From the NCBI GenBank assembly GCA_045863395.1, contig BTVJ01000114.1, positions 1 to 20,930 of the forward strand: a stretch of 20,930 bases of DNA, read 5' to 3'. Positions 6,432 to 15,400 of the stretch are shown piece after piece (the stretch's first letter is position 1; the number at the start of each line of letters is the position of its first letter). The position numbers were made by a program. The DNA is from Myxococcales bacterium. Its GTDB lineage: Bacteria; Myxococcota_A; UBA9042; JABWCM01; BTVJ01.

Positions 6432-9400
6432 GTCGTGTCCGGCCCCTGGGACTTCATGGGCGGACACTTGTCGACCACCTTCCCGCTCACGCAGGCGGTG
6501 GTCCCCTGGGTCAGGCACGCCCCTGTACCGCAGGAGATCGCAGTCGGCGCATAGTCCTCGTCGGTCTTCCCGTCGCAGTCGTCGTCGACCCCGTCGCAGG
6601 TCGTGTCCGCTCCTCCGCAGGGCTTTGCCGCCGCCTGCGCGGCGAACAACACCCCGAGGAGGGCGAAGGCCAAGGCTCGTAGCAACTTTCTCATGCACGG
6701 CTCCCTTTTTTTGGTGGTGGACTCCCGGACCTGCGGTAGAGCATCCACCGTGCCATGCGGCACTTCCGCGCAACTCCTTGACCACAATGATCTCGCACCG
6801 GCTCCGACGGATATGCCCGGTGGGTGTCGTGTGACCCGGGGGTGGGTGGGTGACTCAGGGGGGCGCAGCATCGCGGGCGGGCACTGCAGGAGCTGCAGGT
6901 CCCGCCCCTGCAAGATCTGCATGAGCGTCACTTGCTGTTCGCAGAACATTCAGAATTTACTATGCTTTTGTCCTGGCACGCCCGGTGCAAACCACATCGA
7001 CAGGACCTTCCAGGAGGTGAACCCGTGCTCGAACACCTGGCCATCAGCGAGAGTGGCTTCCTCTTCGACGCCCGCACCGGGCACACGTACACCCTGAGCC
7101 GCACCGGGGTCTTCCTCGTGCGCGCCCTCGTCTCCGGCGCCTCCACTTCAGAGCTGCCCGGCCGCCTCGCCGCGGACTACGACGTGGAGCCGCCCATCGC
7201 GGCCCGCGACGTGGAGCAGTTCCTGATGCGCATGCGCGACCTCGGCCTGCTGGACACGGAGGACGAGCCATGAGCCTGACCATCGCCGTCACCGGCCTGA
7301 ACGCCAGCGACAGCCCCGGCCCCGGGGTGCCCGTGATCCGCGCCATCCGCCATGCGGCCAACGGCGAGGTCCGTGTCGTGGGCCTCGCCTACGACCCGCT
7401 CGACCCCGGCGCCTTCATGTCGGGCATCTGCGACGACGTCTACCTGATGCCGTACCCCTCGCAGGGCGCCGACACCCTCCTCGCCCGGCTGCGCGCCATC
7501 CACGAGATCACGCCGCTGGACGTTCTGATCCCCACGCTGGACGCCGAGCTGTCCGCCTGCATCAAGATCGAGCCCGCCCTCCGCCAGCTCGGCATCCGCA
7601 TGGTGCTGCCCGGCGAGGAGCGCCTGCGCCTGCGCGCCAAGGATCGCTTCGGCGAGCTGGGCGAGGCCATCGGGCTCAGCGTCCCGAAGAGCGTGACCCT
7701 GACGGACGCCTCCACCATCCCCAGCCTCGACAAGGACTTCACCTACCCGGTCATGGTGAAGGGGCAGTTCTACGACGCGTGGATCGCGTGGACTCCCATG
7801 GACGTCCACGCCCACTTCGAGCGCGTGCGGGCCAAGTGGGGGCTGCCGGTCATCGTGCAGCAGCACGTCTCCGGCGAGGAGCTGGACGTGGTGTGCCTGG
7901 GCGACGGCGAGGGCGGCCTCGTCGGGTGGGTGCCCATGCGCAAGATGCAGCTCACGGACAAGGGCAAGGCCTGGGGCGGCGTGACCATCGCCGACCGCAA
8001 GCTGACGGCCTTCGTCCAGGACACGATGCGGCGGCTCAAGTGGCTCGGGCCCTGCGAGCTGGAGATGATGAAGACTCCAGATGGGGCCTTCACCCTCATC
8101 GAGATCAACCCCAGGTTCCCGGCGTGGGTGTGGCTCAGCGTCGGCGCGGGCCGCAACCTGCCGTGGGCGCTCGTCCAGATGGCGCTCGGCCACCCGGTGG
8201 ACCCCATGCCGCCCGCCCCCCCGGGCGTCATGTTCCTGCGCCACTCCTTCGACCAGATCTGCACCCTGTCGGACTACGCCGCGCTCACAACCGCCGGCGA
8301 GCTCCACCGCGAGGAGGCACCCCGATGAAGCAGCCCTACGAGAAGCCGACCATCCTGCGCCATGTGGGCGGGCTCGCAAACAAGCACGGCCGCGGCCCGA
8401 GCCGCCGCTCCATGGGGCGCATCGACGGGGTGCGCGTCGAGGAGCTGGTCGCCCGCTACGGGAGCCCACTGTACGTGTTCAGCGAGCACACGCTGCGCCG
8501 CGCCTACCGCGAGCTTCACCGCGCGTTCTCGCTGCGCTACCCCAAGGTGCAGCTCGCGTGGTCGTACAAGACCAACTATCTGGACGCCATCTGCCGCGTG
8601 TTCCACCAGGAGGGCGCCTGGGCCGAGGTCGTCAGCGAGATGGAGTACGACATGGCCCGCCGCCTGGGCGTGCCGGGGCACCAGATCCTGTTCAACGGCC
8701 CGTACAAGCCGCAGGCGGCGCTGAAGACCGCCATCGACGAGGGCGCGCACCTGCACATCGACCACTGGGACGAGCTGTGGGCCATCGAGCGCATCGCGCG
8801 CGAGTCCGGCCGCCCCGTCCCGGTGACCATGCGCGTCAACATGGACACGGGCATCTACCCGCGGTGGGACCGCTTCGGGTTCAACCTGGACAGCGGCGAG
8901 GCCCTGGACGCCATCCGGCGGATGCACGCCGGGGGGCACCTCACCCTCGACGGCCTGCACGCGCACATCGGCACCTACATCGCGTCCACGGAGGCCTATG
9001 GCAAGGCTGCGAGCCGCCTGGCGGACCTCGCCCTGACCGCGCGCCGGGAGCTGGGCGTCCGGGTCCGCAGCATCGACCTCGGCGGAGGGTTCGCGTCGAC
9101 GGCCACCCTGCACGCCCAGTATGCGCCGGGCGCCGACTCGTCCCCTGCCGTCGACCTCTACGCCGAGGCCATCTCCAACGCGCTCCTCGGGGCCGGCTTC
9201 GCCCCGGAGGACCTGCCGACCCTGATGCTGGAGACCGGCCGCGCGCTCATCGACGAGGCCGGCTCCCTGATCACGTCCGTGGTCGGCAACAAGCGCCTGG
9301 CCAACGGGACGCGGTCCATCATCGTGGATGCGGGGGTCAATGTGCTGTTCACGTCCTTCTGGTATCGCCACGAGCTGCTCCCCGCCCATGACCGGGGAGG

Positions 9401-12400: not shown

Positions 12401-15400
12401 ACAGGCAAACCCGGTGCTTGGGGGGGCCGTGCGCATCGGCGGCCTCACGATGGGGGTCGCAGGCAGCGTGCTCTTCTCCAGCGAGGACTCCCTGGACCTG
12501 ACGGGTCTGGTCCTCGGGTCCCTCGCCTACCGGGACGGTGCCTTCGGGGCGAGCGTGTCATCGACGACCAGCCTCTACCCGAGCCAGGTCGTGGAGCAGC
12601 TCGACGCCCGCTTCGAGTGGGAGCCGGCGCCTTGGCTGTCCCTGGTCCTCGGGCCGGAGCTGCAGATCATCGACGCCGACGAGCTCCTCGCCAGCGGCTC
12701 CCTGTCCGTGACGGGGCGCCCCCACCCGCGGTTGGCGCTGTTCGCCACGGGACTCGGGGGGCCGCGACGCTGGGCCGTCGATGACGTGCTCTTGAGCGTC
12801 TGGACCAACTCCGACCGGGTCATCGGGGGCTACCGCGTGGGGGTGGACTGGACCCCGTGGGACGTCTTCGGGCTCACCTTGACGTTCCGCCACGACTTTG
12901 GCGATGAGCAGGCGGGGCTCACCCGCGACTTTCAGATCTGGGGCGGCACCCTCGGGGCGCGGCTCTTCTTCCAGGAGGCACCATGAAGACGCTTGCAGTG
13001 TTGCTGCTGACCCTCACCCTCGTGCGCCCGGCCGCGGCGGACGGACCGGCGGACATCCCCGACCTGTTCGCGTCGTCCTTCGCCTACGAGACGACGGGCG
13101 ACCTGGACCGCGCGCTCAACGACGCGCTGCGCGTGGTCCGCGTCGAGCCATCCCACTACGTCGCGACCCTGCGCGCGGGTTGGCTCTACTACTTGAAGGG
13201 GCGGTATGGGGACTCGGTGGACCTCTACCAGAAGGCCGTGAAGCTGGCGCCGAACGCTGCGGAGCCCAAGCTGGGGCTCATGCTCCCCCTGATGGCTGCG
13301 GGGCGTTGGGGTGAGGCGGAGGCCGTGGGGGAGCAGGTGCTGGCCAAGGCGCCCCGAAACTACCTGGCGGCGAGCCGGCTCGCCTACTGTGCGTTCTCCC
13401 AGGGGCGGTGGAAGGTCGCCGAGCAGCGCTACAAGGAGGTGCTCGACGACTACCCGGGGGACCTGGAGATGATGCTGGGGCTCGCCTGGACGTGGGCCAA
13501 GCAGGGCAGGGCCGCGGAGGCCAAGGGGCTGTTCCAGAAGGTGCTGGTCATCCGCAAGGACAACGTCAACGCCCGCGCCGGGCTCGACTCGTTGTAGCGC
13601 GTCCTGCGCCGGTGACAACGCCCCGGTCCCTGTGCGAACATTGGACCCATGAGCCCCCCGGCCACGCCGCGCACCTGCCGCGTCTACGAGCCCTCGCTGG
13701 TCACCTCGCAGGCGACCGAGGAGGAGCCTCGCGCGGGGGGGCTGGATCGCGCCGCCATCGAAGCCATCTGGAGGGCGGTCGAAGCCGCCTACCGGACCGG
13801 CCTCTACCCGGCCATGGCGCTGTGCCTGCGCCGCAGGGGCCACGTCGTCCTGGACCGCGCCATCGGGCACGCCCGCGGAAACGACCCCGGGGATGCGCTG
13901 GAGGTCCCCAAGGTCCCCGCGACTCCGGCGACCCTCTTCAACGTGTTCTCCGCGTCGAAGATGGTCATGGCCATGCTCGTGCACCTGCTGTCCGAGCGGG
14001 GCCTGGTGCACCTGGACGACCTGATCGTGCGGTACATCCCCGCCTTTGGTCGTCACGGCAAGGAGCGCACGACGATCCGCCACGTGCTGACGCACCGGGC
14101 CGGGATCCCGTCGGTGCCGCCCGGCGGGGTGGACGTCGGGCTCCTGTCCGATCCGCGGGCGACCGTGGAGCTGCTCTGCGACGCCCGCCCGGTGTGGGTC
14201 CCCGGGCGTCGCCTCGCCTACCATGCGCTGACCGGCGGCTACGTGCTGGCGGAGATCGCCCGCGCGGTCACCGGCGTGGACGCTCGGACGCTGCTTCGCC
14301 GTGAGATCCTGGAGCCGCTGCGGTTCGACCACTTCGGCTATGGGGTTCCCGCTGCGGAGGTGGGCAGCGTCGCCCTCAACTCCTTCACGGGGCCGCCGGC
14401 AGGGCGCCTCGCGGGTGGGCTGTTCCGCAAGGCGCTGGGGGTCGGCTTCGAGGAGGCCGTCGCGCTCTCCAACCACCCCAGCTTCCTCACTGGGCTGGTG
14501 CCGTCGGGCAACGTCATCGGCACGGCCAACGAGGGGTCGCGGTTCATGGAGCTGCTGCTGCGCCGTGGCGCTCTGGATGGCGTCCGGGTGTTTGCCGAGC
14601 GGACCATTCGGGAGGCGCTCCGCGAGCAGTCCTACCTGGAGATGGACCTGACCATGGCGCTGCCCGTGCGGTATGGCATGGGCTTCATGCTCGGCGGGCG
14701 CATCCTGTCGCCCTACGGCATGGGCACGCGAAACGCCTTCGGGCATCTGGGCTTCTCCAACGTCGTGCTGTGGGCCGACCCGGACCGCGACATCAGCGCC
14801 TGCCTCATGACCAGCGGCAAGCCGTTCCTGGCGCTGGGCGAGGTGCGCTGGTACGGCGTCATGCAGACCATCACGCGCACATGCGAGTGATCCGCCTGGC
14901 AGCCTGGCAGCTCGTTGCGCTCTTCGTGGCCGCGCGCGTCTCCGTGGCGCTGCACGAGCTTGCCGGCCACGCGCTGCCCGCGCTCGCCCTGGGGTTGGGG
15001 GTCGAGGAGGTGTCCGTGTCCTGGTTCGGGGGCGGGTTCGTGCGCTTTGGCGCGCCCGTCCCCCCAGGCGCGGCGGCCTTCATCGTGGAGATGGGCGGGA
15101 TCCTGCTGAACCTCGTGCTGTTCCTGGGGGCCGCGTCCCTGACGCGACGGTGGCGCTCCAACGCTCTGGCCGTGTTCGCCGCCGTCAACGTCTTCGGCGC
15201 CACCCACTATGCTGTGCTGGGCTCGTTCCATGGCTTTGGAGATCCGGCAGGCTGGCCCCAGGTCTGGCCACCGGCGCTGGGGCTCGCGGTGATCGCGGTC
15301 CCCGTGGCGCTCGCGCAGTGGCTGCGGACGCTGCCGCTCTCCGGGCGGTCCCGGTGGCTCGCGGTACCTGTGGCTGCGCTCGCTCTCGCGGGCTACGGTG

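What a model noticed while it worked through the whole genome (the two positions that open the first line are those of the whole stretch)
7025..13597. Undescribed widespread operon: PqqD + ATP-grasp + PLP decarboxylase + urea-transporter/M23 fusion + TPR
Six overlapping genes encode a PqqD-type peptide-binding domain, an ATP-grasp ligase, an Orn/DAP/Arg-family decarboxylase with its PLP Lys, a urea-transporter channel fused to an M23 peptidase domain, a TPR/beta-rich protein and a secreted TPR protein. The cassette is fixed in order across distant bacteria and looks like a protein- or peptide-modification and export system of unknown product.
Evidence so far: neighbours.tsv: ATPgrasp_Ter near UT in 1954 of 4125 genomes, decarboxylase near UT in about 2720, PqqD near ATP-grasp in 2490. 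Of 19 metagenome loci with the UT-M23 fusion, 15 have the decarboxylase, 8 PqqD and 13 a match to the TPR gene, nearly all in the same order. No subunit reaches a named NCBIfam except a generic PqqD model; nearest are FslC/LysA and Yut.
(Added by a program. Inside this text positions count along the whole contig: contig position 1 is position 1 of the stretch shown here. "Call 12" and the like, gene names such as g00115 and contig names such as C1 are that model's own, and its searches are not shown. The text may have been shortened before it was handed on; [...] marks where a part breaks off. The agent that wrote the report below was given it as the finding of a first reader that could run no searches.)

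Follow-up and report, generated by a model that had tools for sequence, protein, structure and literature searches.

The report
Clamped ligase-decarboxylase with channel-bound amide cutter
Six overlapping genes form a real, widespread and apparently undescribed bacterial system in which a small peptide-binding protein grips the decarboxylase's own floppy tail, a ligase and the decarboxylase probably build an amide-linked amine product, and an amide-cutting enzyme fixed to a urea-channel-like protein probably releases it for export.

Summary
Confirmed: six overlapping genes (RRE, ATP-grasp, PLP decarboxylase, UT-M23, TPR-barrel, TPR). RRE and ligase lie upstream of the decarboxylase in 108 and 109 of 110 loci with room. 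No separate precursor was found; the leader-like YxxPxI motif is the decarboxylase's disordered N-terminus. Its Tyr5 covaries with RRE Asp62, the Tyr-binding residue of solved RREs. These are the only 2 of 168 near-invariant columns that switch in one clade, and 18 of 18 fresh pairs obey the rule. The decarboxylase is FigC-like without citrate-binding residues. M23 faces the cytoplasm, and a sister operon carries a sirtuin in its place, so that slot probably cuts an acyl-N amide. Tail Lys20 is near-invariant in M23 operons but Arg in 8 of 12 sirtuin operons, so it is not a universal carrier. The barrel is YaiO-like. Best model (0.4): ligate, decarboxylate, cut at the channel, export. The product is unknown; a secreted nylon-like polyamide is not excluded (0.15). 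No paper was found in the searches run. The scan noted this system before on other DNA (16 notes). Complex folding was unavailable.

The parts
7025..7273 (+). Stand-alone RRE (PqqD family, 82 aa, GTG start). Asp62 (codon 7208-7210) aligns with the leader-Tyr-binding position of solved RREs
   Evidence: PF05402 46 bits; closest solved chains TbiB1 and TfuB1, Asp62 aligned to PbaB1 Gln79, the position of LppB Asp70 (PMC13381572 section 10)
7270..8328 (+). ATP-grasp ligase (352 aa, PRK12767/ATPgrasp_Ter-like), catalytic residues intact
   Evidence: K124, K164, E265, E278, N280, R282 in 142-143 of 145 rows
8325..9668 (+). Fold-III PLP decarboxylase (447 aa), FigC-like; PLP Lys82 at 8568-8570
   Evidence: FigC 7KH2 best by sequence (291 bits vs 215 DAPDC, 154 BtrK) and by fold (TM 0.80)
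8337..8390 (+). Leader-like N-terminal tail of the decarboxylase: YxxPxI motif (Tyr5-Ile10) and Lys20 exactly 15 residues after the Tyr
   Evidence: motif counts; residues 1-4 and 6-24 pLDDT <50; Tyr5/Asp62 covariation
9646..11751 (+). UT-fold membrane domain (about residues 18-325) + cytoplasm-facing M23 domain (about 345-495; H363, D372, H447, H480, H482) + C-terminal beta-sheet domain (525-701). Alternative start 9628
   Evidence: (five M23 residues invariant in 33 of 33); positive-inside count
11748..12986 (+). TPR domain + YaiO-like outer-membrane beta-barrel (412 aa)
   Evidence: TPR Pfams; Atlas feature score 0.95 to YaiO clusters, TM 0.79-0.82 to YaiO models
12983..13597 (+). Secreted TPR protein (204 aa, N-terminal hydrophobic signal-like stretch)
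   Evidence: TPR Pfams; orthologues in 34 aligned rows

Best explanation
A clamp-assembled ligate-decarboxylate-cut-export line. (1) The RRE binds the YxxPxI tail of the decarboxylase and holds it to the ATP-grasp ligase. The RRE-tail contact is strongly supported (about 0.85); the RRE-ligase contact is inferred from how RREs work. (2) The ligase makes an amide between a carboxylate and an amine, giving an alpha-amino acid with an amide in its side chain: N-omega-acyl-Orn/Lys as for FigC (favoured by homology) or gamma-Glu on an amine as for BtrJ/BtrK (inferred). (3) The decarboxylase removes the alpha-carboxyl and leaves a terminal primary amine (inferred from family and pocket, about 0.8). 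(4) A cytoplasmic amide cutter on the channel (M23 here, sirtuin in the sister operon) breaks an acyl-N bond and frees the product at the pore mouth (location supported, role inferred). (5) The product leaves through the altered UT pore, the periplasmic TPRs and the YaiO-like barrel (inferred). In this M23-type operon the anchor amine may be tail Lys20 (about 0.4); it cannot be in most sirtuin-type operons.
For: Covariation: 116 distinct RRE/tail pairs give Tyr/Asp 97, Trp/Asp 1, Phe/Tyr 14, Phe/Ser 2, Tyr/Asn 2. Of 168 columns at least 97% invariant outside that clade in six protein parts, only RRE Asp62 and tail Tyr5 switch; the pair also tops APC-corrected mutual information. Out of sample: 15 Tyr/Asp, 3 Phe/non-Asp, 0 violations of 18. 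Asp62 is the position shown to H-bond the leader Tyr. G872 lacks both the YxxP motif and any RRE match in locus or genome; two tail-less relatives have no RRE or ligase nearby (L119, L146). The tail is disordered in the monomer model. The decarboxylase keeps FigC's chain/amide residues (T343, Y347, M372, Y400, R306) and loses its citrate binders (H357 to Ile374, R387 to Gln404); read by hand with PMC7857480 passages, conserved in 163-168 of 168 rows. UT-sirtuin replaces UT-M23 behind the same decarboxylase in 13 loci; 31 UT+SIR2 clusters of 40 hits; catalytic His in 23 of 23. Lys+Arg cluster in loops on the M23 side (C-terminal linker 6.5 per sequence vs 0.03-0.4 in four short opposite loops). 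YaiO-like barrel.
Against: All non-Asp RREs of the tree fall in one clade of 18 rows, so the covariation rests on 1-4 events; whether the 3 out-of-sample Phe cases belong to that clade was not tested. One Trp tail keeps Asp. No substrate, product or flux is shown, and the ligase has no characterised close relative (best PDB hit carbamoyl-phosphate synthetase, 70 bits). If the cutter breaks the very bond the ligase made, the cycle looks costly. No barrel was detected in 13 sirtuin-type loci, and their UT domains score only 51-113 bits with a degenerate second repeat, which fits an anchor or sensor better than a pore. Some operons are split from the UT gene (4 loci). Lys20 is Pro in an otherwise intact operon (L081) and Arg in 8 of 12 sirtuin-type tails.
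Confidence: 0.4

Rival explanations
1. Reversible protein-lysine modification under a membrane sensor. Ligase plus decarboxylase write an aminoacyl group (for example gamma-Glu, then 4-aminobutyryl) on a protein lysine; M23 or sirtuin erases it; the UT domain is a ligand sensor that controls the eraser, and the barrel and TPRs let the ligand in. Nothing is exported.
For: Sirtuins are protein-lysine deacylases (NCBIfam CobB-like 188-241 bits, below cut-off; nearest PDB Sir2Af2). The UT pore is degenerate in the sirtuin type. A sensor version of the related Amt fold exists (6EU6 'Sensor Amt Protein', title only). Lys20 is Lys in 123 of 124 complete M23-type tails while tail positions +2 and +7 swap Lys and Arg freely.
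Against: No other protein start in the genome matches the tail profile, so no outside target is evident. Sirtuin-type tails mostly have Arg. M23-type UT keeps the pore Phe/Asn residues (F29, N82, N238 in 33 of 33). A small ligand would not need a TPR scaffold.
Confidence: 0.2
2. Iterative synthesis of a side-chain-free polyamide (GABA, beta-alanine or 5-aminovalerate units) on an amine primer, cut from the primer by M23 or sirtuin and threaded out through the UT pore, TPR scaffold and barrel.
For: Ligation of a dicarboxylic amino acid followed by alpha-decarboxylation regenerates an amine end (BtrK chemistry, PMC7857480 passage). TPR plus barrel is the export layout of synthase-dependent polymers (search listing only). 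Pore residues are smaller than in dvUT: Thr130 to Ser 31 of 33, Thr294 to Ser/Ala 33 of 33, Glu187 to Ala 33 of 33; dvUT binds 1,3-dimethylurea (3K3G title).
Against: The decarboxylase is much closer to FigC than to BtrK (291 vs 154 bits). No such natural polymer is known to me (recall). No driving force for extrusion is evident. No barrel found in sirtuin-type loci.
Confidence: 0.15
3. A rhizoferrin-like metal chelator or stress metabolite made from free acid plus Orn/Lys, with the tail serving only as a tether.
For: FigC is the closest characterised enzyme. An HMA-AraC regulator lies within 400 bases upstream of the RRE in 14 distinct Bacteroidota-type loci.
Against: Citrate-binding residues of FigC are replaced by neutral ones. 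No NIS synthetase or TonB receptor recurs among neighbours. The regulator is present in only 1 of 19 evenly drawn genomes. The amide cutter is unexplained.
Confidence: 0.12
4. Cell-wall precursor tailoring: the ligase adds a diamino acid to a peptidoglycan stem, the decarboxylase makes a diamine, and M23 edits the stem.
For: M23 folds match peptidoglycan endopeptidases (Z 13-15).
Against: M23 is on the cytoplasmic side and is replaced by a sirtuin; no cell-wall genes recur among neighbours; the barrel is unexplained.
Confidence: 0.06

Closest known systems
FigA/FigC (FslA/FslC) rhizoferrin route: N-citrylornithine decarboxylase FigC (PDB 7KH2)
   Same: Closest characterised decarboxylase by sequence and fold; Met after the catalytic Cys instead of Asp/Glu; ligation followed by decarboxylation of an amide-bearing amino acid
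   Different: ATP-grasp instead of an NIS synthetase; citrate-binding His357/Arg387 absent; FslC model 225 vs cut-off 500; RRE-binding tail, UT-amidase fusion and barrel have no counterpart
Discrete RREs of lasso peptides and LPPs (TbiB1, TfuB1, PbaB1, LppB) binding [Y/W]xxPx[L/V/I/F/A] leaders
   Same: Same fold family, same motif, same Tyr-binding Asp position, which covaries here
   Different: The 'leader' is the N-terminus of a 447-aa enzyme, not a precursor peptide; no lasso cyclase or B2 protease
Fosfazinomycin FzmZ scaffold pathway (PMC13622209, abstract and passages read)
   Same: RRE plus YxxP peptide used to build a small molecule that is later cut off by a peptidase
   Different: FzmZ is a free 22-mer modified at its C-terminus by an AS-like enzyme; here the motif is fused to an enzyme and the cutter is membrane-tethered
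Butirosin BtrI/BtrJ/BtrK
   Same: ATP-grasp ligation (BtrJ; recalled) followed by fold-III decarboxylation on a carrier (BtrK)
   Different: No acyl-carrier protein; decarboxylase only 154 bits to BtrK
Urea transporter family (dvUT, Yut, UT-A/B)
   Same: Fold (Z 39-40), pore Phe/Asn residues
   Different: Filter Thr and Glu replaced by Ser/Ala; fused to an M23 or a sirtuin; Yut model 142 vs cut-off 275
TPR plus beta-barrel export modules (AlgK/AlgE, PgaA, BcsC, PelB; YaiO)
   Same: Periplasmic TPRs with an outer-membrane barrel
   Different: No glycosyltransferase synthase; inner-membrane partner is a UT-fold protein

Membership tests
RRE-dependent RiPP cluster (lasso-type) | Discrete RRE with leader-binding residues | tested here: met
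   Asp62 present; LppB Asn33 position is Asn in 88 and Ser in 10 of 98, Ser in this window
RRE-dependent RiPP cluster (lasso-type) | Separate short precursor peptide with the YxxPxL motif | tested here: not met
   six-frame scan of the own genome: only the decarboxylase scores; no recurring small ORF was searched below 40 aa in other loci
RRE-dependent RiPP cluster (lasso-type) | Lasso cyclase and B2 leader protease | tested here: not met
   none among the six genes or recurring neighbours
FigC/FslC N-citrylornithine decarboxylase | NCBIfam NF041039 cut-off 500 | tested here: not met
   225 bits
FigC/FslC N-citrylornithine decarboxylase | Citrate-binding His357 and Arg387; NIS synthetase partner | tested here: not met
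   Ile374 and Gln404; no NIS synthetase
FigC/FslC N-citrylornithine decarboxylase | PLP Lys, Cys-Met loop, Thr327/Tyr331/Tyr383 equivalents | tested here: met
   K82, C371, M372, T343, Y347 in 166 of 168 rows, Y400 in 168
Diaminopimelate decarboxylase LysA | TIGR01048 cut-off 297.9 and acidic residue after the catalytic Cys | tested here: not met
   221.8 bits; Met372 where DAPDC has Glu
Urea transporter (Yut/dvUT) | UT fold | tested here: met
Urea transporter (Yut/dvUT) | Selectivity-filter Thr pair and second pore-helix Glu/Gln | tested here: not met
   Ser, Ser/Ala and Ala in 33 sequences; roles of these residues recalled, paper not held
Urea transporter (Yut/dvUT) | Urea conduction | not testable with these tools
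   needs a flux assay
M23 metallopeptidase | Zinc ligands and catalytic histidines | tested here: met
   H363, D372, H447, H480, H482 invariant in 33 of 33
M23 metallopeptidase | Extracytoplasmic location and peptidoglycan substrate | tested here: inconclusive
   charge bias and the sirtuin swap point to the cytoplasm; substrate untested
BtrI/BtrJ/BtrK carrier pathway | Acyl-carrier protein gene | tested here: not met
   none in the operon or among recurring neighbours of 120 aa or more (shorter ORFs were not clustered)
Synthase-dependent polymer export | TPR plus outer-membrane barrel | tested here: met
Synthase-dependent polymer export | Processive GT2 synthase | tested here: not met

The most novel reading that the evidence does not exclude
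A self-primed bacterial nylon line: the RRE presents the decarboxylase's own tail lysine to the ATP-grasp, cycles of omega-carboxyl ligation and alpha-decarboxylation grow a side-chain-free polyamide, and a channel-bound M23 (or sirtuin) cuts it free so that it threads a repurposed urea channel, TPR scaffold and YaiO-like barrel to the surface.
Probability: 0.15. Interest if true: 0.95.

Novelty: categorically new. Interest (0 to 1): 0.8.

Why it matters
Two features have no precedent in the papers searched: an RRE whose ligand is the N-terminus of a pathway enzyme rather than a precursor peptide, and a urea-transporter fold carrying either of two unrelated amide-cutting enzymes on its inner face. 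The decarboxylase family was found in about 3-11% of sampled genomes in four phylum samples (27 of 251, 20 of 251, 13 of 251, 9 of 301, one tail-less relative removed from the first and third), mostly uncultured environmental bacteria, so the product is a common unknown. The work gives sharp tests: a defined 25-residue peptide, a predicted contact pair with natural compensatory variants, and a natural M23/sirtuin swap. It also warns that stand-alone RREs 'without precursor' may be assembly clamps, which bears on RiPP genome mining.

Tried and rejected
Complex folding of RRE, ligase and tail was not available (queue full; no verdict), so binding and the position of Lys20 were not modelled. RNA genes: none. 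Sigma-70 promoters: 0; terminator-like hits 4 vs 1.5 expected, none at the operon end. The LipE-like gene at 13649-14890 is not part of the unit: no match in 38 loci. Plasmid collection: no decarboxylase match at E 1e-40. Stand-alone M23+C-terminal-domain proteins with signal peptides, sought to settle topology: the close hits looked like fragments of the fusion, the rest were unrelated M23s. C-terminal domain 525-701: no Pfam family, no usable Atlas feature hit, only weak beta-sheet matches at Z 8-9; not folded alone. My first clade control wrongly counted RRE-less Phe-tail loci as outside the clade and was redone. 'Tail lysine is a universal carrier' was rejected. 'Plain LysA' was rejected (membership test). 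RNA runs hold only contigs, cover neighbours as well, and cannot show transcription. The careful tree did not finish; the quick tree was used. Literature: no paper on the operon; passages of RRE-Finder (PMC7470986), PMC12710340 and PMC10352776 have no mention of urea transporter or M23; supplements were not read and might list these RREs. Iyer et al. 2009 on ATP-grasp neighbourhoods and the dvUT structure paper were not held, so a brief mention there is not excluded.

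
Full report
Observation. The next gene (LipE-like) matched in none of 38 loci and is not part of the unit.

Conservation. Loci came from a GTDB scan with UT-M23 (38), a metagenome scan with the decarboxylase (best 80 of 596) and phylum samples. Among 140 de-duplicated loci, 110 had upstream room and held the ligase in 109 and the RRE in 108; 98 had downstream room and held a UT fusion in 94 (partly circular for UT). A fresh set of 19 evenly drawn Bacteroidota-phylum genomes gave ligase 19, UT+M23 19, RRE 18, with the last RRE elsewhere beside a barrel-like gene. 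The family occurs in 27 of 251, 20 of 251, 13 of 251 and 9 of 301 sampled genomes of four phyla. Barrel and TPR genes move around, and four metagenome loci lack UT nearby.

The RRE's ligand. An earlier scan note (e1-6542870) suggested that the RRE grips the decarboxylase's tail; I tested this. The tail reads [YFW]xxPx[IL] followed by Lys exactly 15 residues after the aromatic residue (188 of 223 rows by a strict pattern; most misses differ in the residues around the Lys or are cut). This matches the leader motif of discrete lasso RREs (PMC13381572, passages and section 10 read). The tail is disordered in the model and absent from most distant FigC-like representatives; two such relatives that I fetched have no RRE or ligase nearby. 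A tail profile finds no other ORF start in the own genome (55 vs 12.5 bits). In the paper, LppB Asp70 H-bonds the leader Tyr; that position is Gln79 in PbaB1, which aligns with our Asp62 (counted by hand). In 116 distinct pairs, Tyr goes with Asp 97 times and Asn twice, Phe goes with Tyr 14 times and Ser twice and never with Asp, and one Trp keeps Asp. All non-Asp rows form one clade of 18 (SH-aLRT 99, quick tree), so this is 1-4 events, not 18. The control is what carries weight: of 168 columns at least 97% invariant outside that clade (RRE 5, ligase 40, decarboxylase 81, UT 11, M23 21, TPR 10) only Asp62 and Tyr5 switch; at 90% three more do. Eighteen new pairs gave no violation. One sirtuin-type operon (G872) has lost both the motif and the RRE (one case, genome completeness unknown). 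I put the RRE-tail contact at about 0.85. Complex folding was not available.

The decarboxylase. FigC is the closest solved enzyme (291 bits vs 215 for DAPDC and 154 for BtrK; TM 0.80). Mapping the residues discussed in PMC7857480 (passages read) onto the printed alignment: Thr327, Tyr331, Met355, Tyr383 and Arg290, which line the aliphatic chain and amide, are kept; His357 and Arg387, which bind citrate in the docking model, become Ile374 and Gln404, and Thr330 becomes Trp346. These residues hold in 163-168 of 168 rows and are the same in both operon types. Inference: the substrate is an alpha-amino acid whose side chain carries an amide to something neutral and bulky, not DAP, free Orn/Lys or a citryl conjugate.

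The membrane protein. The model is confident (pLDDT 91): UT fold (Z 39-40), M23 (Z 13-15) and an unassigned beta-sheet domain. M23 metal and catalytic residues are invariant in 33 of 33. Basic residues cluster on the side of both termini (the long opposite loop has 2.2 but is net acidic), so M23 is most likely cytoplasmic. The pore keeps its Phe/Asn residues but has smaller filter residues than dvUT. A sister operon, which I found by following divergent decarboxylases, reads TPR, RRE, ligase, large TPR, degenerate second ligase, decarboxylase, UT-sirtuin: 13 loci, 31 UT+SIR2 clusters among 40 hits, catalytic His in 23 of 23. The scan had also noted it (e1-7309523). A zinc peptidase and an NAD-dependent lysine deacylase share one thing, cutting an acyl-N amide, and the sirtuin needs the cytoplasm. 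That is the best clue to the role of this slot.

Tail Lys20. It is Lys in 123 of 124 complete M23-type tails, while nearby positions swap Lys and Arg freely, which suggests chemistry at the amine. But it is Pro in one intact operon (L081), Arg in one close database homologue (P0083), and Arg in 8 of 12 sirtuin-type tails with intact enzymes in 7 of those 8. So it is not a universal carrier; about 0.4 that it is the anchor here.

The envelope genes. The barrel is YaiO-like (feature score 0.95, TM about 0.8; a lead, untested for protein parts). TPR plus barrel is the layout of polymer export systems (search listing only). No barrel was detected in the 13 sirtuin-type loci with my two profiles, and their UT domains are more degenerate, which counts against export being the shared function.

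Mechanism. Best reading (0.4): clamp, ligate, decarboxylate, cut at the channel, export. Rivals: writer/eraser of a protein-lysine mark under a UT sensor (0.2), iterative polyamide secretion (0.15), metal chelator (0.12; an HMA-AraC regulator precedes 14 distinct loci but only 1 of 19 evenly drawn ones), cell-wall tailoring (0.06). Only gene content, conservation, catalytic residues and covariation are shown; every chemical step is inferred.

Comparison and novelty. It works partly like FigA/FigC and BtrJ/BtrK (ligate, then decarboxylate) and like the fosfazinomycin scaffold route (RRE plus YxxP peptide for a small molecule; PMC13622209, abstract and passages), but fails defining tests for each. 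Six searches of the held library found no paper on the operon; subscription papers, two named papers and all supplements were not seen. The scan itself has 16 earlier notes on this system in other genomes; they are not independent evidence. I class it as categorically new, interest 0.8.

Noticed in passing
L079:2975-3589, L055:541-1143, L061:5950-6543 and others: An HMA-AraC regulator (CxxC or single-Cys metal site) lies upstream of the RRE in 17 distinct Bacteroidota-type loci, within 400 bases in 14; only 1 of 19 evenly drawn genomes has it.
   Followed up: partly
L014:9009-9926, L023:9007-9915, L024:8986-9822, L026:9104-9940: An eIF-2B/ribose-1,5-bisphosphate-isomerase-like gene is inserted between the decarboxylase and UT-M23 in four Bacteroidota loci.
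   Followed up: partly
L145, L149, L150, L174-L182, L144: Sirtuin-type operons carry a second, degenerate ATP-grasp gene and 800-residue TPR proteins; L148 has two ligases that both keep catalytic residues.
   Followed up: partly
L181:4022-6478 and L151:128-1606 (G585): One genome has an operon decarboxylase without its PLP lysine and a second copy elsewhere with an altered Cys-Met loop.
   Followed up: no
P0248, P0016: Ligase-decarboxylase fusions in the protein database; the P0248 cluster also holds split forms, so a frameshift artefact is possible.
   Followed up: partly
P0372, P0348: Tail-less FigC-like decarboxylases fused to an N-acyl amino acid synthase (FeeM) or a sulfotransferase-like domain.
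   Followed up: no
window:11218-11748: C-terminal beta-sheet domain of UT-M23 has no family; weak matches to LolA- and vitellogenin-like sheets (Z 8-9).
   Followed up: partly
window:7018-9147: RNA-library contigs from two runs of one study start at 7018 and 7030, just before the RRE start; a weak hint only, contigs cannot show a start.
   Followed up: no
window:1625-6949 (-), 15676-17349 (-), 20341-20838 (-): Cys-rich repeat proteins flank the operon; the first two carry MopE-type putative metal-binding repeats. The first is divergent from the operon.
   Followed up: no
G000:C71:10386-10547: A second PqqD-family gene in the own genome, partner unknown.
   Followed up: no
window:17675-18670 and 18741-19424: A DUF7790 gene and a spermidine-synthase-like methyltransferase gene downstream, not conserved with the operon.
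   Followed up: no
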